From assembly GCA_964349945.1 (NCBI GenBank), contig CAYGIH010000001.1, forward strand, positions 297,218 through 361,217: DNA of 64,000 nucleotides, in the 5' to 3' direction. This document shows positions 332 to 25,051 of the stretch, in pieces. The stretch's first letter is position 1, and the number at the start of each line of letters is the position of its first letter. This stretch comes from an uncultured Candidatus Saccharibacteria bacterium (GTDB lineage: Bacteria > Patescibacteriota > Minisyncoccia > Phycocordibacterales > Zambryskibacteraceae). The translations under genes were made by a program, and so were the position numbers. The notes beneath the pieces were generated by a model. The model was not told the origin of the DNA. It saw only the letters and a program-made list of their open reading frames with translations, and made no database searches.

Positions 332-1270
332 TTATGAACTCTTTTGTGCAAGCATGGTGATAGCCTTAGTAATAATAGGCAGAATATCATCATAGAAGTT
401 CAAATCCAAAATATCAGCTAGTTTAAACCAACGAACATCATCGAGCCCACCCTTTTCTTCCTTTTTCTCTAGAGTCAGTTCTTTGTATGGGGCTTCAGCT
501 AGGAAATATGTCACTTGCTTCATTATCTTCCCGTGTTCTGGATGAAAGGTTGAATAAGAGTTTTGTCCCAACTTCTCTCCCACATTCACCTTTACTCCTA
601 ATTCCTCTTCTGCTTCACGTTCAAGGCATTGCTCATCGCTCTCATCTTTTTCTACCTTACCCTTTGTGAGAGTCCAGTGACCAAAGATATCATGAACAAG
701 AGCGAGATAAGTAGTACCTTCATGATGCGCATAGACAACAGCTCCAGCCAGTCGATGAATTGGGAGTTCCTCATCCGGGACGTTTCCAAATTTCTTTTTT
801 GGTCTTGGTTTCTCATCTTTGCCTGGTTCTCCCATCTCTTTATAGACAGCACCAAGCACACCATTCACAAATCTACCAGATGTCTCTCCGCCGAAAGATT
901 TGGCCAATTCTATGGCTTCATTTATAGCTACCTTTGGAGGTACTTCTTTTCTATCAGAAAACAATAACTCAGAAAGACCAATACGGAGAATATTTCTATC
1001 AACTATGGAAATTTTATCTATAGGCCAATCAGGAGCAGCCTTCTCTATAATAATATCTAAATCCTTTTTCTTATCTATAACCTGAGCAAGTAGAGCTTCC
1101 ATAAACGGACGATCGTTTGACCCAGCTGCAAATTCTATAAAATTCCTTGCGAAGATTGTTTGTGGATCTATCTTCCTTGCGCCTTTCTCTACAGCAGTTT
1201 CAAAATCCCACTCAAAAAGAGTTTGAAGTACAACTGAACGTGATAAGTGTCTGTTGGCCATAAAGAACAA
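332..1270 (-). CDS. nusB: NusB antitermination factor fused to a C-terminal Nudix hydrolase domain
   Basis: The N-terminal 140 aa are NusB-like (…KISIVDRNILRIGLSELLF…AINEAIELAKSFGGETSGRFVNGVLGAV). The C-terminal part carries a Nudix box GKVEKDESDEQCLEREAEEELGV. It is a single uninterrupted 312-aa ORF. Confidence 0.7.
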   Translation of the reverse strand: MFFMANRHLSRSVVLQTLFEWDFETAVEKGARKIDPQTIFARNFIEFAAGSNDRPFMEALLAQVIDKKKDLDIIIEKAAPDWPIDKISIVDRNILRIGLSELLFSDRKEVPPKVAINEAIELAKSFGGETSGRFVNGVLGAVYKEMGEPGKDEKPRPKKKFGNVPDEELPIHRLAGAVVYAHHEGTTYLALVHDIFGHWTLTKGKVEKDESDEQCLEREAEEELGVKVNVGEKLGQNSYSTFHPEHGKIMKQVTYFLAEAPYKELTLEKKEEKGGLDDVRWFKLADILDLNFYDDILPIITKAITMLAQKSS

Positions 1271-14430: not shown

Positions 14431-14937
14431 TTAAAACTTCCTAGAATCATATGCCCAATGCAGGAGTGCTTGCCTTTGTCTGGGTCTGCAGAAAATATCT
14501 CCAGCTCTACAATTATTCTTGATTTGAGTGATATGCCTTTTCATCGCGAGCCACCTCTTTATCTGCCTTTCATCATCTTTTGTTCGTCGGCCAAGATAAT
14601 ATCTGCAATACCACTGAAACCACCCCCTAGGGTCTTGTGGATTTATCCAACCCTTGGCTCTCCAAACTGCAAGCGACTGACTGGCATTTATTTTAAAGAA
14701 GTTGAGCTCCTTGTGCCTCTTTTTGTCTGTGGTCAACTTAGCTTTAGTGAACCAACTCCGTGGAAACTCTCTGGGTTTATCAGACATATACAAACCACCA
14801 AAAACCCCAAGCTCGAGCATTTGTTTAGGAGTCAAATCTGGTTTAAAGAGTGCTTCAAAATTTTCTATATTTTTTTTCATATATTCTTGAGAAGATTGAA
14901 AAGCTATTTCACTAATTCTCCACCATTTTTCTGCCAC
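14431..14937 (-). CDS. Hypothetical Trp/Arg-rich protein of 168 aa
   Basis: Uninterrupted ORF containing GWINPQDPRGWFQWYCRYYLGRR. No family recognised. The antisense ORF 14458..15024 was judged spurious. Confidence 0.5.
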   Translation of the reverse strand: MAEKWWRISEIAFQSSQEYMKKNIENFEALFKPDLTPKQMLELGVFGGLYMSDKPREFPRSWFTKAKLTTDKKRHKELNFFKINASQSLAVWRAKGWINPQDPRGWFQWYCRYYLGRRTKDDERQIKRWLAMKRHITQIKNNCRAGDIFCRPRQRQALLHWAYDSRKF

Positions 14938-15209
14938 TCAACCACACCACCCATATTCCTTGCATTAGAAAAACCTAATTCGTGCAATTTGTTTTCTGCC
15001 CAACCAGCCCTACCCCCTGACTGACAATATGTATAAATTGGCAAATTTTTAGGTATAGTCTTCACCACATCTACTTCTCTTTCTAATTCTCCTAGTGGTA
15101 TGTGTAGAGCACCTTGGATGTGCCCAGCGTTCCATTCATCTTTCTCCCTTACATCTATAATGACTATCTCTCCACTCTCTATTAGTTTTGATATTTGCTT
15201 GGGATTCAT
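14904..15209 (-). CDS. Single-domain rhodanese (sulfurtransferase)
   Basis: IIDVREKDEWNAGHIQGALHIPLGEL…YCQSGGRA carries the active-site Cys loop. Confidence 0.8.
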   Translation of the reverse strand: MNPKQISKLIESGEIVIIDVREKDEWNAGHIQGALHIPLGELEREVDVVKTIPKNLPIYTYCQSGGRAGWAENKLHELGFSNARNMGGVVEWQKNGGELVK

Positions 15210-15535
15210 ATTTGAATATTAAGAGAGTAGAGGCGGATGGAGAGGACGGAGAGAAGGATGAGGACAAGGAAACCGAGGGTATAGAAGATGAGCTTCACCG
15301 CTTCCCTTTTCAAACCTTCCCAATACATATAGATTGGACGACCAAAGAACAGACTGCTTGTGGTAGCTGCAGAAACTACGAAGAGAAGAAGGAAAATAAT
15401 AGGGTCAATAAACTTTTTGTCCTGCTGACCCAAAGTCTCGCTCGCATGAGTCATGAAGTATGCGACCAAAGCCACATAAACAAATATTCCTAATGCATCT
15501 ACTAGGGCCCAGAAGATTAATTTAGAATTTTTCAT
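15206..15535 (-). CDS. Membrane protein, hypothetical
   Basis: 109 aa with three TM segments. The ORF is 4-nt overlap with the rhodanese gene start. Confidence 0.45.
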   Translation of the reverse strand: MKNSKLIFWALVDALGIFVYVALVAYFMTHASETLGQQDKKFIDPIIFLLLFVVSAATTSSLFFGRPIYMYWEGLKREAVKLIFYTLGFLVLILLSVLSIRLYSLNIQI

Positions 15536-15542
15536 AACTTTT

Positions 15543-15962
15543 TTATATAGTTTCCAATAACTTTATGATTTTATCTCTGGTTATTCTATAAAATTCCAAA
15601 TTTTGTTCATCTGGATCTGTAATGTCCCAATAAGTAATTTTATTATTGTTCTTCAAAAAATCTGGGACTGCATCAGGCTTTACTATAACGATTATTTTAT
15701 CTGCATTCTGAACCATTGCGGGTGTAAGTCTTTTAATAAAATGATTTGATACGTCAACCCCAATTTCATTCAAGCATTCAATCACATATTTGGATGATGC
15801 ACGGTCTTTTAAAAGCATCCCATCAAGATCTTTACCTTCACTACCCATCGCCTCTGTCCCCGCTGACTGCACAAAAAATTCACTATTCATTTTTTGCCTT
15901 AAAATAGCCTCGGCTATTTGGCTCCTTCCTACATTACCTCTGCATACAAAAAGGATATTCAT
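15543..15962 (-). CDS. LMW protein-tyrosine-phosphatase family / ArsC-like arsenate reductase
   Basis: N-terminal ILFVCRGNVGRSQIAEA, the CX5R(S) P-loop. An ArsR regulator is encoded directly upstream. Confidence 0.75.
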   Translation of the reverse strand: MNILFVCRGNVGRSQIAEAILRQKMNSEFFVQSAGTEAMGSEGKDLDGMLLKDRASSKYVIECLNEIGVDVSNHFIKRLTPAMVQNADKIIVIVKPDAVPDFLKNNNKITYWDITDPDEQNLEFYRITRDKIIKLLETI

Positions 15963-16004
15963 GAGGTAAGTTTACTACTATTAATGCATTACTCAACTAT
16001 TCGC

Positions 16005-16268
16005 TTATTCGAGCGAATTAGAGATGTATTTTACAATGTGATGAAGATTAGTTGAAAATTTATAGAACATCTGCAAGCTTCTATGCTCTTTGTCTACAAT
16101 ATCGGCTCCATACAAAACAGCCAGATGTTTTGACGTGGCCTTGAATGACAACTTTATTTCATCAGCAATTTCGCTTACAGTCATTTCCCTTCTCTTTTTT
16201 AAACATCTCACAATCTCAAGTCTGCGTTTGTTCGCCAAAGCTTTCAAAATTCTTTCTAAATTTTTCAT
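16005..16268 (-). CDS. ArsR/SmtB family transcriptional regulator
   Basis: ALANKRRLEIVRCLKKRREMTVSEIADEIKLSFKATSKHLAVL is a winged-HTH ArsR signature. Confidence 0.8.
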   Translation of the reverse strand: MKNLERILKALANKRRLEIVRCLKKRREMTVSEIADEIKLSFKATSKHLAVLYGADIVDKEHRSLQMFYKFSTNLHHIVKYISNSLE

Positions 16269-16289
16269 ATTTTAATTATATTACCTTTT

Positions 16290-16538
16290 TCAAACTATTC
16301 TACCATTCGCGCGAATAAGAGATATGTTTAATGCTGGTGATTGTGTAAATTTATACTTGATGCAAGGACGGTCCTTGCATATTATGGTTTTCACCACATC
16401 TGCCTCAGCTTCTAATTCCCCGAGTGGTATATGCAAAGCTCCTTGTATGTGTCCAGCGTCCCATTCATTTTTCTCTCTTACATCTATAAGTATTATTTTC
16501 CCGTTTTTTATTTGTGCGCTTATTTGTTTAGGATCCAT
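16290..16538 (-). pseudogene. Rhodanese paralogue disrupted by insertion of a 28-bp palindromic element
   Basis: The first 48 aa are about 80% identical to the 14904..15209 rhodanese (…GHIQGALHIPLGELE.E.DVVKTI). The frame then runs through the palindrome at 16359-16386. The 3' end derives from an ArsR-3'-end-like repeat and the catalytic Cys loop is lost. Confidence 0.6.
16359..16386. repeat. Palindromic element copy 1 (gatgcaaggacggtccttgcatattatg)
   Basis: 28 nt, identical to copy 3. The core TGCAAGGAC|GGTCCTTGCA is a perfect palindrome. Confidence 0.8.
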
Positions 16539-16558
16539 ATCTATATTTTATACTATTT

Positions 16559-16581
16559 GATGCAGGACGGTCTTTGCATTA
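16559..16581. repeat. Palindromic element copy 2 (degenerate: gatgcaggacggtctttgcatta)
   Basis: It shares the left flank tttatact…ttgatgca with copy 1. Confidence 0.6.
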
Positions 16582-16608
16582 AAAAATCCGCAAACTACGT
16601 TTGCGGAT
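16581..16608 (-). terminator. Rho-independent terminator after the 16608..16883 gene
   Basis: ATCCGCAAAC-gtag-GTTTGCGGAT (minus sense) is a perfect 10-bp stem followed by TTTTTT. Confidence 0.65.
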
Positions 16609-16883
16609 TAACCCTTCTGAACGAACTGGATGATGTTCAGCACGATTGAAATCGCAAGGAGAATTCCAGAAACCCAAGCGATGACACCAGCGATGGCCAA
16701 GCCGGCAGTACCCTTGAAGAACGCTTGAGAGGTGCTGTCGAACCCTCGCGGATTCAGCATTCCTGAAGGCATCGGGCTCCGACTCATCCTTCTCATCCGT
16801 GAAATCTGGTTGAAGATGAGGTAAATGAACGACACGGCTGCGATAAACAGCCAAACGTACCAATGTTCCATGATGTAGATCAC
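16608..16883 (-). CDS. Membrane protein, hypothetical (GC-rich)
   Basis: 91 aa with two TM segments. GC is higher than in the flanks. The alternative frame 16579..16863 was judged spurious. Confidence 0.45.
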   Translation of the reverse strand: MIYIMEHWYVWLFIAAVSFIYLIFNQISRMRRMSRSPMPSGMLNPRGFDSTSQAFFKGTAGLAIAGVIAWVSGILLAISIVLNIIQFVQKG

Positions 16884-16941
16884 ACAGTCCTCGCGGTTGA
16901 AGGTGCAGAAAACAGCTAGGAGCTATTATGCATATATTGAA

Positions 16942-17181
16942 TCACTTTGTCAATCCAATATATTTGAAGCGGGGTTGGGTGACGCCGTCGCGGGTGACTG
17001 TCTCAAGGAACATGCTGAGTGGGCGGACCCACATTGTGTTCCCTTCCTCACCTTTCACTGGGTCTGGATGAACATAAACAACCATTTTTTCTAAAGTCTC
17101 ACTATCTAATGCAACCCCAATCACCTCAACTTTCATCCCCTTAAAATGTTCGTATAACCCGAGTTTTATTTCTGAATTCAT
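16942..17181 (-). CDS. DUF1653 domain protein, copy 1
   Basis: LGLYEHFKG…SETLEKMVVY…WVRPLSMFLETVTRDGVTQPRF is a DUF1653-like pattern. It is a paralogue of 18454..18669. Confidence 0.65.
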   Translation of the reverse strand: MNSEIKLGLYEHFKGMKVEVIGVALDSETLEKMVVYVHPDPVKGEEGNTMWVRPLSMFLETVTRDGVTQPRFKYIGLTK

Positions 17182-17597
17182 ACTAAATATTTATTTATTA
17201 GTCCACTTATATCATAATCAAAATTAGTTCCAACATTTACAAATTCTAGTGGTAATTCAATAAATTCAAATATTTCTTTCTTCTCTTTATCACTATCTTT
17301 TCTATCATTTCTCATATGCGATGATCCGTTTAATTCGATTGCCAAAATTGGGTGAAAAAATGAATTACAAATTAAAAAATCAATATGTTTAGGAAGAATC
17401 TCATTTCTGTGAGAGTAATACCCCCTGCCACTAGTTGTTTCAATGATATCTGCCACTCTCATTTTTGGAAAAACATAAAAACCATCTGGTAATTGTTTTA
17501 ATAATTCTAGATAAAAAACTTCTTCACTTTTCTCCATTACGCTTTCGCGCTTTTTAAATTCGGATGATTTATCTAAGCTAAAATATTTTTTAAACAT
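17178..17597 (-). CDS. DUF2726-like protein (tentative)
   Basis: 139 aa containing KMRVADII…HIDFLICN…PILAIELNGSSH, a pattern recalled for DUF2726. Confidence 0.4.
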   Translation of the reverse strand: MFKKYFSLDKSSEFKKRESVMEKSEEVFYLELLKQLPDGFYVFPKMRVADIIETTSGRGYYSHRNEILPKHIDFLICNSFFHPILAIELNGSSHMRNDRKDSDKEKKEIFEFIELPLEFVNVGTNFDYDISGLINKYLV

Positions 17598-17610
17598 AAT
17601 ATATTTTTTC

Positions 17611-17638
17611 GATGCAAGGACGGTCCTTGCATATTATG
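17611..17638. repeat. Palindromic element copy 3 (gatgcaaggacggtccttgcatattatg)
   Basis: Identical to copy 1. It lies between the DUF2726-like gene and mscL. Confidence 0.8.
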
Positions 17639-17640
17639 AT

Positions 17641-18042
17641 TTAAATGACAACTTGTGTACAATGCGCACAACGCTTCGCATCAAGTGGTATTTCACTCAA
17701 ACACTCTTTGCATTTCTTTGTTGTTGGATCTGCTGGTGGTTCCTTGCGAGCTTTGGCTATAAGCATATTCATAGGCTTCACTACAAAGAAAAACACTGCC
17801 CCAGCTACAAGGAGAAATGATATAAGAGCATTAATAAAATGCCCATACATAAACTGACTGCCATTCAGACTAAACGAAAGCCCATTAAAATCAGGGACTT
17901 TGGTTATCGCAGCTATTAATGGGGTGAGGAGATCAGACACCAAAGCGCTCACAATTGTTCCAAACGCTGCTCCTACTACAACACCGACAGCTAGGTCAAC
18001 TACATTACCCCTAAGTAAAAATTGTTTAAATTCTTTAATCAT
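17641..18042 (-). CDS. mscL: Large-conductance mechanosensitive channel with a C-terminal zinc-ribbon
   Basis: MIKEFKQFLLRGNVVDLAVGVVVGAAFGTIVSALVSDLL is the MscL N-terminus and TM1. The C-terminus KKCKECLSEIPLDAKRCAHCTQVVI (CxxC-x10-CxxC) replaces the usual helical bundle. Confidence 0.8.
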   Translation of the reverse strand: MIKEFKQFLLRGNVVDLAVGVVVGAAFGTIVSALVSDLLTPLIAAITKVPDFNGLSFSLNGSQFMYGHFINALISFLLVAGAVFFFVVKPMNMLIAKARKEPPADPTTKKCKECLSEIPLDAKRCAHCTQVVI

Positions 18043-18108
18043 ATAATTAACAAATGTTATGTATTAATTTTTCCTTTTTGTATTTTACCACTAATTTAGC
18101 TTCGATTC

Positions 18109-18381
18109 TTATTCTAGTTTTTTGCAAAATACTAGAATAGATTCGGCGCGAGGTGTCAGCTTATGTAATACGTTATTACCCTTATTCCTTTTCAAAACCA
18201 ACCCAGCAATGGCCATTTTGCGAATATGATCTGAAGCATTCTGATAACCAATTTTTAATTTCTCTGATATGTCTTCCACTGATAATTCTGGTTCATTTTT
18301 CAGTAATTCTAATATTTGTATTCTCCTATGATTCGCAAAACCTTTTACTGCCCTTTCTATCCTTCTATAATTTGTTGCCAT
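18109..18381 (-). CDS. ArsR/SmtB family transcriptional regulator (second copy)
   Basis: FANHRRIQILELLKNEPELSVEDISEKLKIGYQNASDHIRKMAIAGLV is a winged-HTH ArsR signature. Confidence 0.8.
   Translation of the reverse strand: MATNYRRIERAVKGFANHRRIQILELLKNEPELSVEDISEKLKIGYQNASDHIRKMAIAGLVLKRNKGNNVLHKLTPRAESILVFCKKLE
18110..18139. promoter_or_regulatory. Operator-like palindrome B1 (tattctagttttttgcaaaatactagaata)
   Basis: Near-perfect 30-bp palindrome with a TTTTGCAAAA core. It overlaps the arsR-2 3' end and lies 70-100 nt upstream of mscL. Confidence 0.45.
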
Positions 18382-18416
18382 AAAATATTTTTATATTTTA
18401 AAATACCTCCTTAATT

Positions 18417-18448
18417 CTATTACGTAATTTTGCAAAAAACTAGAATAG
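18417..18448. promoter_or_regulatory. Operator-like repeat B2 (ctattacgtaattttgcaaaaaactagaatag)
   Basis: Same TTTTGCAAAA…ACTAGAATA half-site as B1, with the other arm replaced by ctattacgtaa. It lies upstream of the arsR-2 start. Confidence 0.45.
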
Positions 18449-18453
18449 ATATA

Positions 18454-18669
18454 CTAAGAAAGGGGTTTGAAGCGGGGTTGGGTGACGCCGTCGCGGGTGA
18501 CAGTCTCGAGGAACATACTGAGTGGGCGGACCCAGAGAGCTTCTTCACCAAAGTGTTTGTAGATGACCATTTTCTCCAATGTCTCACTGTGTTGAGCAAA
18601 CCCAACCACTTCGTATTTCCCTCCTTTGAAATGCTCATACAACCCAAGTTTTATTTCTTCATTATTCAT
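18454..18669 (-). CDS. DUF1653 domain protein, copy 2
   Basis: MNNEEIKLGLYEHFKGGKYEVVGFAQHSETLEKMVIYKH…WVRPLSMFLETVTRDGVTQPRFK. About 70 nt of DNA in the 3' half are near-identical to copy 1. Confidence 0.65.
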   Translation of the reverse strand: MNNEEIKLGLYEHFKGGKYEVVGFAQHSETLEKMVIYKHFGEEALWVRPLSMFLETVTRDGVTQPRFKPLS

Positions 18670-18702
18670 ATCTGTATTTTACATCATTTATAATTTTTAA
18701 AT

Positions 18703-18732
18703 CTATTACGTAATTTTGCAAAATACTAGAAT
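18703..18732. promoter_or_regulatory. Operator-like repeat B3 (ctattacgtaattttgcaaaatactagaata)
   Basis: Third copy, located upstream of DUF1653 copy 2. Confidence 0.45.
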
Positions 18733-18810
18733 AAGGACTATTTAACTATTCGCCTATTCCCTCCTTCGTATAAAACTACGGACGGGCGCGGCGCGCGAAT
18801 TAGAGAAGAG

Positions 18811-18879
18811 AAAATGCATCACCTCATACTTCCCTCCCTTAAAATGTTCGTATAACCCGAGTTTTATGGATTGATTCAT
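18811..18879 (-). pseudogene. 5' fragment of a third DUF1653 gene
   Basis: Encodes MNQSIKLGLYEHFKGGKYEV…. 33 nt are identical to the 5' end of copy 1. It is truncated at a junction with the aactattcgc…gcgcgaattagag repeat. Confidence 0.5.
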
Positions 18880-18881
18880 AA

Positions 18882-19742
18882 TTACCATATTAAATCATTT
18901 AATATGCCGTTCTCAATCATGTTTAGATTAAAAACATATTCATTATGATTATATGTCTCTTCGAGGGGTCTGAGTGCTGTCTCCCAGCCTTTCCCATCGG
19001 TAATCCAAATAAAATCAATGTTTTGCTTTCTTAAATCTGTATATAGACTCTTGAATTCGCCACATACAGCTTTCAGTTTTGATCCTCCCCCATTATAAAA
19101 ATTTACTTCTAAAAGTTTGATTTTATTATTTTTGGGATTATATATTGCGAAATCAAAACTTCTGCTAGATTTATCTACTTCAACGATTAACCCCCATTCT
19201 TCCTTTATTTTTTTAGCATTAACCTGTTTAAGATAAGCTAAACCTTTGTCATTACAAAATTTAATAATATTAGCTTCAGTTATATCTTCCATTAGAGTTC
19301 CTTCTCTGTTTTTTCTGCCATTACTATCTAAACCAACCTCAACTCCAATAACGTAATCAACAAGATTTTTTATACCATCTTCATTAAATAATTTTGCTAG
19401 TCCAGTATTTTTTATAAAATCATAGTATTCTTCAGCTTTTTTATTAGCATTGTTATTAAAATTGAAAAACATGCTTTTTTTAGTTTCTAAATCAAAAAGC
19501 TCAATATTTTTTTCACGTATCGCAAGAAGTGCTGGTATAGCTCTTATAATATCTGGATTTGACGAATAAAGTTTAATAAATTCTTCTTTTAAATTTTTCT
19601 TTCCTAAAAGATAATTCAATTTATTTAGAATTATTTCTAACTCTGAACTATGAGAAAATACTTTATTCCAATTAACAAAATAATCCCATGTTTTAATAGA
19701 ATTTTTGAAGGTATTAACTAAATAATTAAAATCTTTTTTCAT
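18882..19742 (-). CDS. Type II restriction endonuclease, DpnII/MboI (GATC) family
   Basis: 286 aa. LVDYVIGVEVGLDSNGRKNREGTLMEDI, LLEVNFYNGGGSKL and FIWITDGKGWE align with recalled R.DpnII segments (LVDYVTGVEVGMDTNGRKNRTG…, LIEVNFYSGSGSKL, FMWITDGQGW). Confidence 0.8.
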   Translation of the reverse strand: MKKDFNYLVNTFKNSIKTWDYFVNWNKVFSHSSELEIILNKLNYLLGKKNLKEEFIKLYSSNPDIIRAIPALLAIREKNIELFDLETKKSMFFNFNNNANKKAEEYYDFIKNTGLAKLFNEDGIKNLVDYVIGVEVGLDSNGRKNREGTLMEDITEANIIKFCNDKGLAYLKQVNAKKIKEEWGLIVEVDKSSRSFDFAIYNPKNNKIKLLEVNFYNGGGSKLKAVCGEFKSLYTDLRKQNIDFIWITDGKGWETALRPLEETYNHNEYVFNLNMIENGILNDLIW

Positions 19743-19743
19743 G

Positions 19744-21339
19744 TTATTTTGTAATATTATTTTTAAGATAATTCCATGTTTCTATACTTTTTGTAAAAAT
19801 TTTATTTTCATTCAGATTTTTATCTTTCCTCATTTGCTCAATATAATATTTTTGTAAAATATTAAATATTTCATTTATATCTGTTTCGCTGTTTGATTTT
19901 AAATAATAGAGACCAGCTATAATATGAAAGTCCATATGCCTAAGCATGCTTTTTTTGTTTTTATTTTTTTCACTTTTAATTTTTTTATCTACCAAAATTC
20001 CAATATCACATAATTCTATTATCCTGTTTGAATTAGTTTTGATTAGCTTTTGAACTTTTTCATATTCTCCGCGTATATCATTTTCAAAAATACTTTTTCT
20101 TGCATTTTTTGCTTGAGCTGGTTGCATATAGAATGCAGCATAAGACCATTGAAAAAATTTAATATATGGAATATTCATAATTTTTTTATCATGAAGTGAG
20201 CCTTTCCTGTTATAAATATATTTTCCTTTGCTTTTATTAAAAATAAAAATCTCCAATTCCTTTTGAAATAAATCATTTGTCCTAAGATCTTCCACTCTAA
20301 CAGCTTTTTGCGTATTAGATGATTCACAAATTCTATCAATCAACTGTTGGTCAACTGCTTGTATAAGCTTACATACAACCTTCGCATTTTTAAAATGAAT
20401 ATCTTTAGGGTTATTTTTATATAAACTAGAAAGATTACCAATAGTTTGCGCCCCATTAACAACTTGTGGCTCAATAATTTTATATTGCCTACTTTCACTT
20501 ATTATTTTTTTAGCAATAATCGTAATACCATTATGAAAAAGAAAAAACTTTTTAGTTTCATTTTGAATTGTCTTCAAAAGACCGTTTTGAAATTTAAAGT
20601 TTTTATGAGGAATCCTCACATTACTTGAAAATAAATCCTTATTATCATCAATATGTTTCTGATAAAGCTTTAGTAAGTCTAAAACGTTTACATTTACTAT
20701 TATTTCAGAGTACTCTTTTCTATCATCAATGGGCCACATTTTTGTTGCCGAGTTTACTGATAAATTCCATTCTGACAAAAAATCTATCTCAAGTAATTTA
20801 GAAATAACTTCATCAAGTGTTAGCAATGTTAAATTAACATTCGCTATATTTTTTATATCCTGTAACATAGCATCAACTTGCTTCCCAAACTTTTTAGGAT
20901 ACTTTTTTCTTATTATAAAAAGATTAATGACTTTGCGCTTATTTTGAGAAGAATGCCATTGTTTTATTTGCTTTTTTAAACGTTCACATATAGAAAAATC
21001 TTTTGGTTTTGCCTTTAAAAAATTTCTTATAATGCTTTCTCTAAAATTCTTTAGATCATTTGTTCCTAATCCCTCTTCAATTTTAAAATCAAATAGATCT
21101 AAAGACTCCTTAGCGAACACAACAGCGTCTACACCGTCATCAAAAATCCCATCTGTTATTATTAATTTAAAATCTTCATCTGTATGTTCTTTTTTATAAA
21201 TTATATTTAAACAAGTAATTATTAGAGAGTATGCCTTTTCACTAGAACCATCAAATCCTTTGCTTTGAAAATACTGAACAAGTCTTCTTGCTTGCGTTGT
21301 GTTTTTATCAATCAATGATGTCAATATCTCATTCTTCAT
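19744..21339 (-). CDS. AIPR-like abortive-infection protein (tentative) embedded in the R-M operon
   Basis: 531 aa. The N-terminal ITDGIFDDGVDAVVF is a Mrr-like DGxxDxG motif. The internal FHNGITI and VVNGAQT motifs resemble AIPR family hallmarks recalled from memory. Gaps of 1-3 nt separate it from the flanking MTase and REase genes. Confidence 0.55.
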   Translation of the reverse strand: MKNEILTSLIDKNTTQARRLVQYFQSKGFDGSSEKAYSLIITCLNIIYKKEHTDEDFKLIITDGIFDDGVDAVVFAKESLDLFDFKIEEGLGTNDLKNFRESIIRNFLKAKPKDFSICERLKKQIKQWHSSQNKRKVINLFIIRKKYPKKFGKQVDAMLQDIKNIANVNLTLLTLDEVISKLLEIDFLSEWNLSVNSATKMWPIDDRKEYSEIIVNVNVLDLLKLYQKHIDDNKDLFSSNVRIPHKNFKFQNGLLKTIQNETKKFFLFHNGITIIAKKIISESRQYKIIEPQVVNGAQTIGNLSSLYKNNPKDIHFKNAKVVCKLIQAVDQQLIDRICESSNTQKAVRVEDLRTNDLFQKELEIFIFNKSKGKYIYNRKGSLHDKKIMNIPYIKFFQWSYAAFYMQPAQAKNARKSIFENDIRGEYEKVQKLIKTNSNRIIELCDIGILVDKKIKSEKNKNKKSMLRHMDFHIIAGLYYLKSNSETDINEIFNILQKYYIEQMRKDKNLNENKIFTKSIETWNYLKNNITK

Positions 21340-21341
21340 AC

Positions 21342-22148
21342 TTAGGATTTTTTATTTTTCAAATTCTTATCTAATTCCTCATATCTTTTTATAGATACAT
21401 CTAAGTACTTTTTTTCTAAGTCTACACCTATAAACGTTCTTCCGTACAAGTGAGCCGCCACCCCAGTAGTTGAGCTACCTGTAAATGGGTCTAAAATAAC
21501 ATTTCCTTTATTTGTACTAGCCAATACAATTCTCTTCAATAAATCTTCTGGTTTTTGGGTAGGATGCTTCCCAAATTTCTTTTCAATTGGTTTTGGTGTC
21601 CCCATTGACCAAACTGAGCGCATTTGAAGGCCTGGTTTTTTTAACGCATCTTCTGGCCATGTTCCATTCTTCATCAAATCATAGTTAAATATGTGTTTTG
21701 CCTTTTTATCTTTTCTGGCCCAAATAAGAGTTTCATGACTTGCTGTGAAAAATCTACAACTTAAATTTGGTGATGCATTTGGTTTAAACCATGCAATATC
21801 ATTCAACACGTGAAATCCCGCAACTTGTAGGGCAAAACCACATTGATAAATTGAATGATATGTTCCACTTATCCAAATTGTCCCACTTGGTTTTAATACC
21901 CTATGAACCGCTTTTATCCATTCAAGATGGAATTCAAAATCTTTTTTTAGTCCATTGCTTTTATCCCAATCTCCTTTATGAACGCTGACCATTTTCCCCG
22001 CATGAACAGTAAAACCTCCATTTGAAAGCAAATATGGAGGATCTGCAAAAACCATATCAACAGAATTTTCTTCCATATCAGCCAAAATATCCAAACAATT
22101 TGCTTGATAGAGGGTAAAATTTTTATCTTTGTAATATGGTTTCTTCAT
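21342..22148 (-). CDS. Beta-class N6-adenine DNA methyltransferase, DpnA/M2.DpnII-like (GATC inferred)
   Basis: N-terminal DMVFADPPYLLSNGG (motif IV, DPPY) and C-terminal VILDPFTGSSTTGVAA (motif I). There is extended similarity to the recalled DpnA sequence (…VLKPSGTIWISG…GKHPTQKPE.LL.RI.LAST…). Confidence 0.9.
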   Translation of the reverse strand: MKKPYYKDKNFTLYQANCLDILADMEENSVDMVFADPPYLLSNGGFTVHAGKMVSVHKGDWDKSNGLKKDFEFHLEWIKAVHRVLKPSGTIWISGTYHSIYQCGFALQVAGFHVLNDIAWFKPNASPNLSCRFFTASHETLIWARKDKKAKHIFNYDLMKNGTWPEDALKKPGLQMRSVWSMGTPKPIEKKFGKHPTQKPEDLLKRIVLASTNKGNVILDPFTGSSTTGVAAHLYGRTFIGVDLEKKYLDVSIKRYEELDKNLKNKKS

Positions 22149-23078: not shown

Positions 23079-23124
23079 ATGGGTAGAACAGGTGGTCGCA
23101 GTCCCCTACGAATACGGAGGCACC

Positions 23125-23517
23125 ATGGGTACCTTGAACAGGAAGTTTGGGAAGTTCTTGGTCGGTCTCGGATGCTCGCTCTTGTGGGCATGCGGTGCTG
23201 ACACCAGCGACTATCCCTTCCAGATTGTTGCGAATTCGCACCTCTCGGAAGCTGGTCGCTTGGACATCGGTCCAAAGGCAGTGAACCTCGGCGCCGGTGC
23301 CAAGGCCAACATGGACCCGATTCACCTGCCCGTCGATGACTGCCACGGCACCTCGACCGGTCCGTGCGGCAACTACTGGTACGGCTCTGTGACCTTCACC
23401 ACCACGAGTGGTGAGTACATCACCGAGTACTGCCAGTTCTACAGCCGTCGGCAGGGCTCGATTGACATCTTCCGCGACAGCAACAAGAAGCTCCGACTCT
23501 CATGCCAATCCGGCTGA
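23125..23517 (+). CDS. Small secreted/lipoprotein-like protein of 130 aa (GC-rich island)
   Basis: MGTLNRKFGKFLVGLGCSLLWACGADTS is a signal peptide with a lipobox-like LWAC. A Cys-rich mature part follows. RBS GGAGG precedes the ATG and a terminator follows the stop. Confidence 0.5.
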   Translation: MGTLNRKFGKFLVGLGCSLLWACGADTSDYPFQIVANSHLSEAGRLDIGPKAVNLGAGAKANMDPIHLPVDDCHGTSTGPCGNYWYGSVTFTTTSGEYITEYCQFYSRRQGSIDIFRDSNKKLRLSCQSG

Positions 23518-23540
23518 GAACAGGACTTCAACACCATACA

Positions 23541-23571
23541 CCCCGTTCCGATTCTGTCGGAACGGGGTTTT
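23541..23571 (+). terminator. Rho-independent terminator
   Basis: CCCCGTTCCGA-ttctg-TCGGAACGGGG followed by TTTTCAC. Confidence 0.65.
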
Positions 23572-23611
23572 CACTTGCAAATTTTTTCATCCTAAACACT
23601 TCGTGTCGGAC

Positions 23612-23640
23612 AAAGAAAAAGCTCGAGGGTTACTCGAGCT
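23612..23640 (-). terminator. Rho-independent terminator for the NMO gene
   Basis: AGCTCGAG-taacc-CTCGAGCT (minus sense) followed by TTTTTCTTTG. Confidence 0.6.
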
Positions 23641-23650
23641 GTTGTTGGGT

Positions 23651-25051
23651 TTAACCGCGGAGATACCGGATGGCATCCACTGCAGTGTAACTACTGTATT
23701 CATCCTGCATGAGGTGAGGAAGGAAACTCACATCATCACCCATGGTGAAAACTGGAAGTTCACGCGGATTACCCAGACCCGCGGCTGAAAAGAGTCCGTT
23801 GCACAGACACCTTACCCCGAGAGTATCTTCAATCTTGCCACCCTTGCGGAGATAGTCTGCTTCTGGTTCGGCCGAGCAACGAAAGCCAATCTTCCCATTC
23901 GGCATCTCATACGGATACACTAGCGCCGAACGATCACAAACTCTTGGCCTTGATTCGTACACTTGCGATTCTGATTGTGTACCCGCAAGTTGGACAACTT
24001 TGAACGGGAAGCCAGTTGGTGAAGCACATGGGTCAGTCAGAATCTGCAATTCTCCAAGAAACCCAAGTCTCCGAATCTTGTTGCGATACATCCGATCCAT
24101 CCCCGAATCATCGGAGAGTGCAAAGATGGAGCCCGCTTGGATACCAACTGCGCCGAGTGACTGTGCGCGAGCGAGCCCAGAGGGCGAAGCGAGCGACCCA
24201 CCAATCCAGAATGGAATCCCTAGATCGATGAGCTTTTGGAAATTCACTTCATCTCGTTCTCCGTACACGGGCTGACCCAAAACATCGAACACACCCTTCT
24301 TGCGTGGAGGAGCGTTGTGTCCTCCAGCAGTCGGCAGTTCGACGACGATGCCCTGCATACTATCTGGACCGAGCTTGGACTTCATGAGTGAAGCCAACAC
24401 ATCAGTAGAGACAATGGGCAGAAAGCCTGGACGCCGAAGCTCGCTCGGATATGATGCTCCAAAGAAAGCCTTCGGATCAAAACTAATCGTCCGAGTCCCC
24501 TCCTTGCTACCCTCCACAGAAACTCGATACTCTGGATTCCTACCGGAAGCCAACGCATCGAGCACCCCAGGGATTTGGAGCGTGATGCCCGCACCCATGG
24601 TGATGAAGTCTGCTCCTGCGAGCATCGCACCAGTGAGGTGATAGATGTGAGGAATCTGAAGCTTCTCCAGATAGTTCACACTTATCGGACCTTCGTGGCC
24701 CTCCTTGGCCAACCACACGAGTGCGAAGCTCGCAGCCACGGTGAGTTCAATGAGATCCCGTCGAGACTCCAAAGTGAACGCGGGTACTCGCTTGAAATTC
24801 GAGTTTGGGACCTTGCCACCTTCGATGAAATACTTCCTCAGAACCCTATCCACTACTCCTTGGAACGGAAACGTGGCCAGTGCACGACGATAATGCCCTC
24901 CTTCATCTCCGAGTTGGAGAATATGAGCGAGCACACGTTCTGCACCAGTGCACGACACTGTACCTAGTACACCAGCTTCTGAACAAACCTTCGCGAGGTG
25001 GGGGCTCGAGATGTAGATCCCCATGCCCCCTTGTATGATGGGTCTCTGCAT
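23651..25051 (-). CDS. Nitronate monooxygenase / 2-nitropropane dioxygenase family FMN oxidoreductase (GC-rich)
   Basis: 466 aa. N-terminal IIQGGMG…SS.LAKVCSEAGVLGT and downstream AGADFITMGAG and TAGGH are NMO/FabK-like motifs. Confidence 0.75.
   Translation of the reverse strand: MQRPIIQGGMGIYISSPHLAKVCSEAGVLGTVSCTGAERVLAHILQLGDEGGHYRRALATFPFQGVVDRVLRKYFIEGGKVPNSNFKRVPAFTLESRRDLIELTVAASFALVWLAKEGHEGPISVNYLEKLQIPHIYHLTGAMLAGADFITMGAGITLQIPGVLDALASGRNPEYRVSVEGSKEGTRTISFDPKAFFGASYPSELRRPGFLPIVSTDVLASLMKSKLGPDSMQGIVVELPTAGGHNAPPRKKGVFDVLGQPVYGERDEVNFQKLIDLGIPFWIGGSLASPSGLARAQSLGAVGIQAGSIFALSDDSGMDRMYRNKIRRLGFLGELQILTDPCASPTGFPFKVVQLAGTQSESQVYESRPRVCDRSALVYPYEMPNGKIGFRCSAEPEADYLRKGGKIEDTLGVRCLCNGLFSAAGLGNPRELPVFTMGDDVSFLPHLMQDEYSSYTAVDAIRYLRG

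What the first reader, a model, noticed from the sequence alone, without database searches (positions are those of the whole stretch)
16290..17638. 28-bp palindromic mobile-like element in three copies, one inserted into a rhodanese paralogue
gatgcaaggacggtccttgcatattatg occurs identically at 16359-16386 and 17611-17638, with a degenerate copy at 16559-16581. Its core is a perfect 18-bp palindrome TGCAAGGACGGTCCTTGCA. Copy 1 sits inside ORF 16290..16538. Its first 48 aa match the intact rhodanese at 14904..15209, after which the frame reads through the palindrome and the catalytic Cys loop is lost. This indicates a REP/MITE-like small element that disrupts genes in this genome.
Basis: seen in the sequence. 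Interest (0 to 1): 0.55.

Follow-up and report, generated by a model that had tools for sequence, protein, structure and literature searches.

The report
REP-type palindrome at gene-cluster rearrangement seams
The repeated 19-bp palindrome is a local copy of a hairpin repeat found across the ultra-small CPR bacteria, where it brackets REP-associated (RAYT-like) transposase genes; here its three copies sit at the seams of a reshuffled gene cluster and are not a simple insertion into a gene.

Summary
The 28-mer occurs exactly twice (16359-16386, 17611-17638), with a decayed copy at 16559-16581 and nothing else in the 64 kb. The core is 19 nt (9+1+9), not 18.

TGCAAGGACNGTCCTTGCA is heavily enriched in Patescibacteria/CPR genomes: 59 of 68 hit loci, with the rest at chance level. 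In 11 independent loci this palindrome, or a compensatory variant, directly brackets a Y1/HUH transposase gene. That gene family's only solved relative is E. coli TnpA-REP. So this is a REP-type element tied to RAYT-like genes.

It is not a simple insertion into a rhodanese gene. After copy A the sequence is the 3' end of an ArsR gene (0 of 2000 shuffles), so ORF 16290..16538 is a rhodanese-5'/palindrome/ArsR-3' fusion. A close relative has the compact order TspO-LMWPc-membrane-rhodanese-MscL and no palindrome. All three window copies lie within about 10 nt of homology breakpoints against it.

Elsewhere in CPR about 30% of copies lie in frame inside housekeeping genes. All five checked against solved homologues are same-length replacements, not insertions.

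No RAYT gene is in the window, and genome-wide copy number could not be measured.

The parts
17611..17638 (.). Copy B: exact 28-mer (core palindrome 17613-17631), 2 nt after the mscL stop codon and 13 nt before the DUF2726 start codon. Inferred donor copy.
   Evidence: Its outer parts are collinear with the relative's MscL-downstream spacer (anchored alignment p=0.013). RNA hairpin -11.5 kcal/mol.
16359..16386 (.). Copy A: exact 28-mer (core 16361-16379) at the junction between the rhodanese 5' fragment and the ArsR 3' remnant.
16559..16581 (.). Copy C: decayed copy (1 substitution, 1 deletion; the hairpin has collapsed). It lies between an intrinsic terminator and the start of the rhodanese fragment, at the upstream homology breakpoint.
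16383..16550 (-). Duplicated fragment: 12 nt of the membrane-gene/rhodanese spacer plus the first 52 codons of a rhodanese gene.
   Evidence: 76.6% identical to the intact paralogue. 79.7% identical to the relative L082 over 16408-16550. Pfam Rhodanese.
16271..16355 (-). Remnant of the 3' end of an ArsR-family gene plus its downstream spacer, homologous to ArsR1 at 16064..15971.
   Evidence: Local alignment score 28 vs 9.9 +/- 1.7 in shuffles, 0 of 2000.
16290..16538 (-). Chimeric 82-aa ORF (rhodanese N-terminus + CKDRPC encoded by the palindrome + scrambled ArsR tail). Probably a pseudogene.
16585..16609 (-). Canonical intrinsic terminator (11-bp stem followed by T6) ending the high-GC membrane ORF 16608..16883, immediately upstream of copy C.
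14904..15209 (-). Intact rhodanese paralogue, last gene of the ArsR1-LMWPc-membrane-rhodanese cluster (16268..14904).
17641..18042 (-). mscL. It follows rhodanese in the relative but lies upstream of the cluster here.
15963..22146 (-). About 6.2 kb mosaic lying between TspO and LMWPc, which are adjacent in the relative. It contains a low-GC DpnII island, three DUF1653 copies, ArsR2, mscL, DUF2726, a high-GC membrane ORF, the gene remnants and all three palindromes.

Best explanation
The palindrome TGCAAGGAC-N-GTCCTTGCA is the REP (repetitive palindrome) of a Patescibacteria-wide REP/RAYT-like system. It is a DNA hairpin that brackets the genes of a large family of HUH/Y1 transposases related to E. 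coli TnpA-REP, and it is scattered at a few to a few dozen copies per genome.

In this Parcubacteria window the three copies are not independent insertions. They mark the seams of a rearranged, partly foreign 6-kb mosaic.

- Copy B (inferred) arose in place, downstream of mscL. A native weak quasi-palindrome there was overwritten, and its outer bases (ATAAnATG...CTTGCAT) are still shared with the relative.
- Copy A (inferred) is a 28-32 bp patch copied from B. It carries B's native left flank CATAATA and seals a deletion that joined codon 52 of a duplicated rhodanese gene to the last ~20 codons of an ArsR gene. Short microhomologies lie at both edges: CATA on the rhodanese side and CTTGCA on the ArsR side. 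This is the pattern expected from template switching or microhomology-mediated repair at a hairpin-forming site.
- Copy C is a decaying copy at the other end of the rhodanese fragment.

Shown: the repeat itself, its CPR-wide distribution, the RAYT bracketing, the chimeric junction, and the breakpoint positions.
Inferred: the direction B to A, the template-switch mechanism, and any activity of a RAYT in this genome.
For: (1) Distribution. The genome-contig scan gave 68 loci: 55 named CPR from at least six lineages, 4 unclassified, and 9 non-CPR. Chance expectation is about 9-17. One genome has 27 exact copies, mostly as 60-bp doublets, 7 of 8 in inverted orientation.

(2) RAYT link, forward test. 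Seven of the palindrome-selected loci contain a PF01797 Y1_Tnp gene. The best NCBIfam model is REP_Tyr_transpos, at sub-threshold score. Each gene is bracketed by the palindrome just outside its start and stop.

(3) RAYT link, reverse test. Four family members chosen without regard to the palindrome are all bracketed by palindromes of the same design. Two paralogues in one genome carry different compensatory variants: TACAAGGAGAGTCCTTGTA and TGCGAAGACTGTCTTCGCA.

(4) The family has invariant HUH (MPNHFH) and YIHxNP motifs. Its only PDB match is 4ER8, TnpA-REP. The PPDK|Y1|PGI gene order is conserved at 55% protein identity.

(5) Window junctions. The sequence after copy A is an ArsR 3' end and not rhodanese. 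The relative L081-L084 (77-87% nt identity) has TspO-LMWPc-membrane-rhodanese-MscL-ORF129 and no palindrome at up to 5 mismatches. Its homology blocks end at 17648, 16550 and 16408/16383, next to copies B, C and A.

(6) Copy B is collinear with the relative's spacer (p=0.013).

(7) A parallel case. In Nomurabacteria locus L031 a truncated M16 peptidase fragment is bracketed by two inverted copies.
Against: - No Y1 transposase gene is in the 64 kb, and the rest of the 381-kb contig could not be read.
- Only three copies are visible, all within 1.3 kb, so dispersal in this genome is unproven.
- The 28-mer was not found at any other locus.
- The classic GT(A/G)G or CGTC REP head is absent.
- About 30% of CPR copies are intragenic, unlike classic REPs.
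- Two rayt genes (L021, L064) are flanked by direct rather than inverted copies.
- The polarity of the rearrangement relative to L082 rests on the presence of remnants, not on an outgroup.
- The in-place origin of B rests on p values of about 0.01-0.04.
Confidence: 0.75

Rival explanations
1. Simple transposition: a REP/MITE-like 28-bp element inserted into an intact rhodanese paralogue and broke it.
For: Rhodanese homology ends at the edge of the 28-mer. The two copies are identical over 28 bp.
Against: - The 90 nt downstream are not rhodanese (p 0.14-0.41). They are an ArsR 3' end (0 of 2000 shuffles).
- No target-site duplication and no terminal inverted repeats.
- The 28-mer is absent from other loci.
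- In five other host genes the palindrome adds no length.
Confidence: 0.04
2. Operator of a transcription factor, such as the neighbouring ArsR-family repressors, controlling the promoters of DUF2726, the rhodanese fragment and the ArsR1 operon.
For: - It is a perfect dyad with a free centre base.
- All three copies lie upstream of start codons on the minus strand, next to AT-rich TATAAA-like boxes.
- The relative that lacks ArsR genes also lacks the palindrome.
Against: - Across CPR, 22 copies lie inside long housekeeping ORFs.
- The consistent neighbour is a Y1 transposase. Only one ArsR homologue occurs in 91 loci, and it is 3 kb from the site.
- Promoter-like matches in the region do not exceed shuffles (11 vs 10.1).
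Confidence: 0.05
3. A purely structural RNA hairpin (terminator or mRNA stabiliser) with no mobility. The copies are similar because of local duplication.
For: The RNA hairpin is stable at -11.5 kcal/mol, z = -3. Copy B sits right after the mscL stop. REPs in E. coli are known to stabilise upstream mRNA (general knowledge).
Against: - No U-tract follows it on the coding (minus) strand. It scores as terminator-like only on the antisense strand.
- A terminator does not need an 18-base sequence conserved across a superphylum, nor bracketing of transposase genes.
- This could be a secondary effect rather than a rival origin.
Confidence: 0.08
4. A chromosomal protein-binding site kept by selection (parS/matS/Noc-site-like), perhaps bound by a domesticated RAYT. 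New copies arise by point mutation at near-matching native sequence, with no copying at all.
For: - The sequence is exactly conserved across CPR classes, with a few to tens of copies per genome in both genes and spacers.
- Intragenic copies are same-length replacements at sites where homologues already resemble the encoded peptide.
- rayt genes hold conserved syntenic positions.
Against: - Copies A and B share 9-13 asymmetric flanking bases beyond the dyad, which needs copying rather than convergence.
- Flanks are genome-specific (CC..GG in Beckwithbacteria, T..A in a Saccharibacteria genome), and that Saccharibacteria genome has whole doublet units repeated with their linkers.
- No positional clustering could be tested.
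Confidence: 0.12
5. DNA uptake sequence for the competence machinery of CPR bacteria.
For: Like USS/DUS, copies occur in frame in genes by substitution.
Against: - Density is far too low: 3 per 64 kb here and at most about 30 per genome, against roughly 1 per kb for USS/DUS (general knowledge).
- The specific bracketing of Y1 transposase genes is unexplained.
Confidence: 0.02

Closest known systems
REP / REPIN sequences with their RAYT (TnpA-REP) transposases of Proteobacteria (E. coli yafM/BIMEs, Pseudomonas, Stenotrophomonas; Nunvar 2010 PMC2817692; Bertels 2017 PMC5581495)
   Same: - Short palindromes bracket a single Y1/HUH transposase gene.
- Each paralogue has its own variant, and arm changes are compensatory.
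- Inverted doublets with conserved linkers occur in one genome.
- The transposase gene is syntenic and looks vertically inherited.
- The only PDB relative is TnpA-REP, 4ER8.
   Different: - The palindrome is a perfect 9+1+9 dyad without the GT(A/G)G or CGTC head.
- The same 18 bases are conserved across a whole superphylum instead of being genus-specific.
- Copy numbers are low (3 seen here, at most about 30 exact elsewhere).
- About 30% of copies lie in frame inside genes, including two fixed positions inside the rayt gene itself.
- The proteins are longer (about 215-226 aa) and score below the NCBIfam cutoff (42-51 vs 80 bits).
IS200/IS605-family insertion sequences and their palindrome-associated derivatives (PATEs)
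   Same: A Y1 HUH transposase gene of about 0.7 kb lies between subterminal hairpins. No target-site duplications.
   Different: - Both ends carry the same palindrome rather than distinct left and right ends.
- The gene sits at a conserved syntenic site at 55% protein identity.
- The family profile hits TnpA-REP but no IS200/IS608 TnpA structure.
Rickettsia palindromic elements (RPEs) (my knowledge: Ogata et al. 2000)
   Same: Palindromic repeats found in frame inside protein-coding genes that stay open.
   Different: RPEs are 100-150 bp insertions that add 30-50 residues. Here the 19-mer replaces native codons with no length change.
DNA uptake sequences (USS/DUS) of Pasteurellaceae and Neisseriaceae (my knowledge)
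   Same: Copies arise inside genes by substitution, in the reading frames that are best tolerated.
   Different: Those are 9-12 bp, non-palindromic, occur about once per kb, and are not tied to a transposase.

Membership tests
REP/RAYT system | A cognate Y1/HUH transposase with an HUH motif and a catalytic Tyr | tested here: met
   In related CPR loci: PF01797 hits, invariant MPNHFH and YIHxNP motifs, and 4ER8 TnpA-REP as the only PDB match. The NCBIfam REP_Tyr_transpos score is below cutoff.
REP/RAYT system | The rayt gene is flanked on both sides by the REP | tested here: met
   Seven loci found through the palindrome and four found through the protein. Copies lie 2-37 nt from the start or stop.
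REP/RAYT system | The two flanking REPs are in inverted orientation (Nunvar 2010: 'always') | tested here: inconclusive
   Inverted in L003, L036, L047 and L085. Direct in L021 and L064. Orientation can only be read from the centre base or arm mismatches, because the dyad is otherwise perfect.
REP/RAYT system | Each RAYT has its own REP class, with palindromy kept by complementary changes | tested here: met
   L088 and L090 come from one genome and carry different variants. L003 and L085 carry further variants.
REP/RAYT system | A conserved GT(A/G)G or CGTC head next to the palindrome | tested here: not met
   Flanks are CC..GG, T..A or A..T depending on the genome. No GTAG or CGTC head appears.
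REP/RAYT system | Over-represented, dispersed, extragenic copies in the genome | tested here: inconclusive
   There are 27 exact copies on 10 contigs of Saccharibacteria QS_5_54_17 and 8-9 in a Beckwithbacteria MAG. But 22 of about 70 CPR copies are intragenic, and the window has only three copies in 1.3 kb.
REP/RAYT system | A cognate RAYT gene in the same genome as the window's copies | not testable with these tools
   None in the 64 kb. The source contig is 381,535 bp and cannot be read beyond the window.
REPIN (REP doublet) | Two REPs in inverted orientation separated by a short conserved spacer, repeated as a unit | tested here: met
   Met in QS_5_54_17 only: eight doublets at 58-61 bp spacing, seven with C then G centres, and two linker types. 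Not present in the window, where A and C are 200 bp apart, in the same orientation, with a gene fragment between them.
MITE | Terminal inverted repeats plus target-site duplication | tested here: not met
   No direct repeats flank A or B. The left flank is shared (CATAATA) and the right flanks differ (TCAAG vs TCGAA).
Intrinsic terminator | A GC-rich hairpin followed by a U-tract on the transcribed strand | tested here: not met
   On the minus (coding) strand the hairpin is followed by TCGAAAAAA or TCAAGTAT. It scores as terminator-like only on the plus strand.
ArsR/SmtB operator | A dyad upstream of ArsR-regulated operons that recurs with ArsR genes | tested here: not met
   One ArsR homologue in 91 loci, 3 kb from the palindrome.

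The most novel reading that the evidence does not exclude
Patescibacteria carry an ancient, vertically inherited RAYT-REP system whose REP spreads by templated overwriting of native near-palindromic sequence (short conversion or template-switch patches) rather than by insertion. This lets it colonise essential coding sequences in frame (read as ARTVLA or LQGxSLQ), sit at two fixed sites inside the rayt gene itself, and seal deletion junctions such as copy A in this window.
Probability: 0.35. Interest if true: 0.8.

Novelty: new variant of a known kind. Interest (0 to 1): 0.6.

Why it matters
REP/RAYT systems have been described mainly in Proteobacteria, and how REPs multiply is still unsettled.

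A single 19-bp REP conserved across the whole CPR radiation gives a compact, comparative system for asking how REPs are copied and what RAYTs do for the host. In CPR it brackets a family of at least 8000 Y1-transposase clusters and is written in frame into genes such as CTP synthase, SOD, BipA, MnmA, LeuRS and SecA without changing their length.

Practically, the motif flags rearrangement seams and gene remnants in CPR genomes, as it does here. It explains recurrent ARTVLA/LQGxSLQ peptides in CPR proteins. It can also break assemblies, since several copies lie at contig ends.

Tried and rejected
- Rfam (local permissive scan and whole-window gathering scan) found no RNA family at the palindromes, only two tRNAs elsewhere.
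- Literature searches by sequence string and by keywords found no description of this motif.
- ArsR operator idea: rejected.
- Promoter idea: spacing to the AT-rich boxes is wrong, and promoter-like matches do not exceed shuffles.
- Sigma-54 and parS resemblance, considered from memory: spacing or sequence does not fit.
- Continuation of rhodanese homology past copy A (TATAAATTTACACAAT vs TAAAAATTTGCCAAT): not significant, p=0.14.
- Y1 transposase in the window: tblastn was negative. The one HMM hit (E=4.5e-4) lies in a GT2 glycosyltransferase with no HUH motif.
- Metagenome scan with the window-type 21-mer: 10 contigs, none related to the window and none sharing the 28-mer flanks.
- Viral contigs: one hit only.
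- No orthologues of the palindrome-bearing host genes exist in the window for an internal empty-site comparison.
- A full step-by-step reconstruction of the rearrangement (tandem-duplication models) was attempted on paper and left open, because no outgroup is available.
Full report
OBSERVATION

The 28-mer GATGCAAGGACGGTCCTTGCATATTATG is present exactly at 16359-16386 (copy A) and 17611-17638 (copy B). There is no other match at up to 3 mismatches in the 64 kb, and none in shuffles. Self-BLAST extends the identity to 32 nt with one mismatch. A decayed copy C lies at 16559-16581, with one substitution and one deletion.

The core is 19 nt, with 9-nt arms around a free centre base. It is 21 nt if the flanking A/T pair is counted. 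A broader scan for related dyads found no further copy or variant in the window.

All genes here are on the minus strand. Read on that strand the copies are:
- A: CATAATA-TGCAAGGACCGTCCTTGCA-TCAAGTATAAATTT
- B: CATAATA-TGCAAGGACCGTCCTTGCA-TCGAAAAAATATATT-ATG (DUF2726 start)
- C: TTTTTAA-TGCAAAGACCGTCC-TGCA-TCAAATAGTATAAAATATAGAT-ATG (rhodanese fragment start)

ORF 16290..16538 matches the intact rhodanese (14904..15209) over its first 52 codons (40/52 identical) and hits Pfam Rhodanese. The catalytic CQSGGR loop is missing.

WHAT THE PALINDROME IS

A scan of one genome per species (596 Gb) for TGCAAGGACNGTCCTTGCA returned 68 loci.
- 55 are named Patescibacteria/CPR: Saccharibacteria, Beckwith-, Woese-, Nomura-, Collier- and Gottesmanbacteria.
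- 4 are unclassified MAGs.
- 9 are non-CPR, which is about what chance predicts for 18 fixed bases (roughly 9-17).

The centre base can be any nucleotide.

Some genomes hold many copies.
- Saccharibacteria QS_5_54_17 has 27 exact copies on 10 contigs. Eight are doublets spaced 58-61 bp apart, seven of them with a C centre then a G centre (inverted orientation), and with two recurring 41-nt linkers.
- A Beckwithbacteria MAG has 8-9 copies, all extended to CC...GG.

The decisive association is with a transposase. Seven of the palindrome-selected CPR loci contain a homologue of one protein family. That family is Pfam PF01797 Y1_Tnp. Its best NCBIfam model is 'REP-associated tyrosine transposase', though below cutoff at 42-51 bits against 80. 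HUH (MPNHFH) and YIHxNP motifs are invariant. The only PDB match of the family profile is 4ER8, E. coli TnpA-REP.

In every one of these loci the gene is bracketed by the palindrome or a close variant a few nucleotides outside its start and stop. Examples are L036 (433-451 and 1131-1149 around gene 464..1129) and L047 (1724-1742 and 2425-2443, exact reverse complements of each other).

For the reverse test I took four family members from a protein search, chosen without regard to the palindrome. That search returned at least 8000 clusters, mostly Patescibacteria, some labelled RayT by JGI. All four are bracketed by palindromes of the same design.

Two paralogues in one genome (GCA_034718535.1) carry different, internally compensated variants: CC-TACAAGGAGAGTCCTTGTA-GG and CC-TGCGAAGACTGTCTTCGCA-GG. 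Each variant also occurs elsewhere in the locus and inside its own gene.

P0081 and P0020 occupy the same PPDK|Y1|PGI position in two genomes at 55% identity. This points to vertical inheritance, not insertion-sequence behaviour.

These are the defining traits of REP/RAYT systems: rayt genes 'always flanked by two REPs', complementary mutations preserving palindromy, inverted doublets, and single-copy vertically transmitted genes (Nunvar 2010, PMC2817692; Bertels 2017, PMC5581495).

Differences from classic REPs are:
- no GT(A/G)G or CGTC head;
- a perfect dyad conserved across a superphylum;
- low copy numbers;
- direct rather than inverted flanking copies in two loci (L021, L064);
- frequent intragenic copies.

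INTRAGENIC COPIES ARE REPLACEMENTS

Of about 70 CPR copies, 22 lie inside long ORFs of ordinary genes. These include LeuRS, SecA, CTP synthase, BipA, MnmA, ArgRS, MurT, DinB, endonuclease III, SOD, glycosyltransferases and the rayt genes themselves. All are in frame: 11 read as ARTVLA, 10 as LQGxSLQ and 1 as CKDxPC.

Alignment to solved homologues shows no added length in any of the five tested:

| Host gene (locus) | Palindrome-encoded stretch | Solved homologue | Homologue stretch |
|---|---|---|---|
| CTP synthase (L068) | efARTVLAm | 3nva | efARDVLGl |
| SOD (L028) | DLQGLSLQELL | 6pro | DLQNKSLEELL |
| BipA (L034) | VLQGQSLQM | 5a9v | VDLDGPFQM |
| Endonuclease III (L004) | LARTVLAKY | 9nzc | LAKKLVEDY |
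| MnmA (L010) | LQGQSLQL | 9hlv | VKGEKTEV |

The orthologous RAYTs P0020 (DLQRLSSQV, encoded by its own REP variant) and P0081 (LDEKKIVI) show the same pattern. So in CPR genomes the palindrome is written over native sequence that already resembles it. It is not inserted, and the genes stay open.

WHAT HAPPENED IN THE WINDOW

The window belongs to a Parcubacteria/Paceibacteria (Minisyncoccia) bacterium, judged by the named top hits of its PheS. The source contig is 381,535 bp.

The 90 nt after copy A (16358..16269) show no significant similarity to the rest of the rhodanese gene (p 0.14-0.41). They are clearly homologous to the last ~20 codons of ArsR1 plus its downstream spacer: score 28 against 9.9 +/- 1.7, 0 of 2000 shuffles. 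The 82-aa ORF is therefore a chimera of rhodanese 5' end, palindrome and ArsR 3' end. It is a fusion junction and not an interrupted gene.

A close relative was recovered through the only homologue of the ORF (P0002; contigs L081-L084; 77-87% nt identity). It has the compact order TspO-LMWPc-membrane-rhodanese-MscL-ORF129-Gmad2, no ArsR gene, and no palindrome at up to 5 mismatches.

In the window, about 6.2 kb lie between TspO (22457-22147) and LMWPc (15962). This stretch contains:
- a 21-29% GC island with a DpnII endonuclease gene;
- three DUF1653 copies;
- ArsR2;
- the relocated mscL;
- copy B;
- DUF2726;
- a 46-49% GC membrane ORF with its own terminator;
- copy C;
- the rhodanese fragment;
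- copy A;
- the ArsR remnant;
- ArsR1.

Homology blocks to the relative end at 17648 (copy B starts at 17638), at 16550 (copy C ends at 16559), and at 16408/16383 (copy A ends at 16386). All three palindromes therefore sit within about 10 nt of a breakpoint. The rhodanese|ORF129 junction, where mscL lies in the relative, carries no palindrome.

Copy B's surroundings are collinear with the relative's MscL-downstream spacer:
- window: TAAATCATAATATG-CAAGGACCGT-CCTTGCATCGAAAA
- relative: TAGGAGTATAAAATGTGAAGAAATTTAACTTGCAT-AAACA

The anchored global alignment gives p=0.013. The relative has only a weak quasi-palindrome there (-2.0 kcal/mol, against -11.5 for copy B).

This suggests B arose in place by the same overwriting seen in coding regions. 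B's left flank CATAATA would then be native. Copy A shares that flank, preceded by native rhodanese codons (AAAACCATA, against AAGACTATA in the paralogue). On its right, ArsR1 has CTTGCA natively (AGC TTG CAG) a few bases before the shared TATAAATTT.

I therefore infer that A is a 28-32 bp patch templated from B. It joined rhodanese codon 52 to the ArsR tail through microhomologies (CATA and CTTGCA), as in template switching at a hairpin-forming site. This step is inference. Copy C has lost its hairpin and looks like a decaying copy.

A parallel case exists in Nomurabacteria locus L031. There a truncated M16 peptidase fragment is bracketed by two inverted copies.

ALTERNATIVES

- An ArsR operator is unlikely. 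Only one ArsR homologue occurs in 91 loci, and it is 3 kb from the site. Many copies are intragenic.
- A terminator role fails on the coding strand, where no U-tract follows. The copies score as terminator-like only on the antisense strand.
- Promoter-like matches do not exceed shuffles.
- Rfam finds nothing.
- A DNA-uptake role is contradicted by the low density.
- A selected protein-binding site that arises only by point mutation cannot explain the shared asymmetric flanks of A and B, or the repeated doublet units. A host-beneficial role for a domesticated RAYT remains open.

LIMITS

- No Y1 transposase gene is in the window, and the rest of the genome could not be read.
- The 28-mer was found at no other locus.
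- The polarity of the rearrangement lacks an outgroup.
- I found no paper describing this motif. That covers only the open-access library searched.

VERDICT

The repeat is real, and it is a REP-type element of a CPR-wide RAYT-like system, which is a new variant of a known kind. The claim of a simple insertion that disrupts a rhodanese gene is not supported. Copy A is a fusion seam in a mosaic region.

Noticed in passing
L036 641-659 and 945-963; L047 1910-1928 and 2217-2235; L021 681-699; L088 10152-10170 and 10456-10474; L090 8467-8485: RAYT-like genes carry their own REP variant in frame at two fixed internal positions (about aa 51 as LQGxSLQ, about aa 155 as ARTVLA). The internal copies covary with the variant that flanks the gene. 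This suggests concerted evolution or self-regulation.
   Followed up: partly
L005, L006, L013, L020, L042, L051, L052, L053 (Saccharibacteria QS_5_54_17, PXOU01): REPIN-like doublets: two palindromes 58-61 bp apart (C centre then G centre in 7 of 8), with two alternative 41-nt linkers. One linker occurs in both orientations relative to the same outer flank. The doublets are embedded in larger repeats that carry further hairpins (gtcattccg...cggaatgac).
   Followed up: partly
L078 8003-8057: A 55-bp perfect palindrome built around the 19-mer core: TAGCACATCCAGTCCTTA-core-TAAGGACTGGATGTGCTA.
   Followed up: no
L031 4567-5171 (Nomurabacteria): A 176-aa N-terminal fragment of an M16 peptidase is bracketed exactly by two inverted copies of the palindrome. 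This parallels the window's rhodanese fragment between copies C and A.
   Followed up: partly
window 16942-17181, 18454-18669, 18754-18888; also 18411-18447 vs 18697-18733: Three DUF1653 paralogues, one truncated to 44 aa, share a GC-rich 3' segment. A 37-bp direct repeat (94.6% identical) lies downstream of two of them. This indicates repeated local duplication in the same mosaic region.
   Followed up: partly
window 18882-21400: A very low-GC island (21-29% against 39.5% for the window) begins with a DpnII-family restriction endonuclease gene (18882..19742, Pfam E=2e-91). It is probably an acquired restriction-modification cassette and is absent from the relative.
   Followed up: partly
window 16608-16960: A 46-49% GC segment encodes a 91-aa membrane ORF with no Pfam hit, ended by a textbook terminator (16585-16609). 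It looks foreign to this genome.
   Followed up: no
window 23100-25051: A stretch of 50-60% GC in a 39.5% GC genome contains a 466-aa ORF (23651..25051) and two 8-bp-stem hairpins (23544-23564, 23620-23640). No Rfam hit. Possibly horizontally acquired.
   Followed up: no
window 16306-16317 and 16000-16022: The palindromes ATTCGCGCGAAT (upstream of ArsR1) and ATTCGCTtattcgAGCGAAT (at the ArsR1 stop) are homologous pieces of the ArsR 3' end and its remnant. Either could double as an ArsR operator.
   Followed up: no
L001 1-19; L031 5153-5171; L059 6964-6982; L063 3374-3392: Several palindrome copies lie at or near contig ends. This suggests the repeat breaks CPR metagenome assemblies.
   Followed up: no
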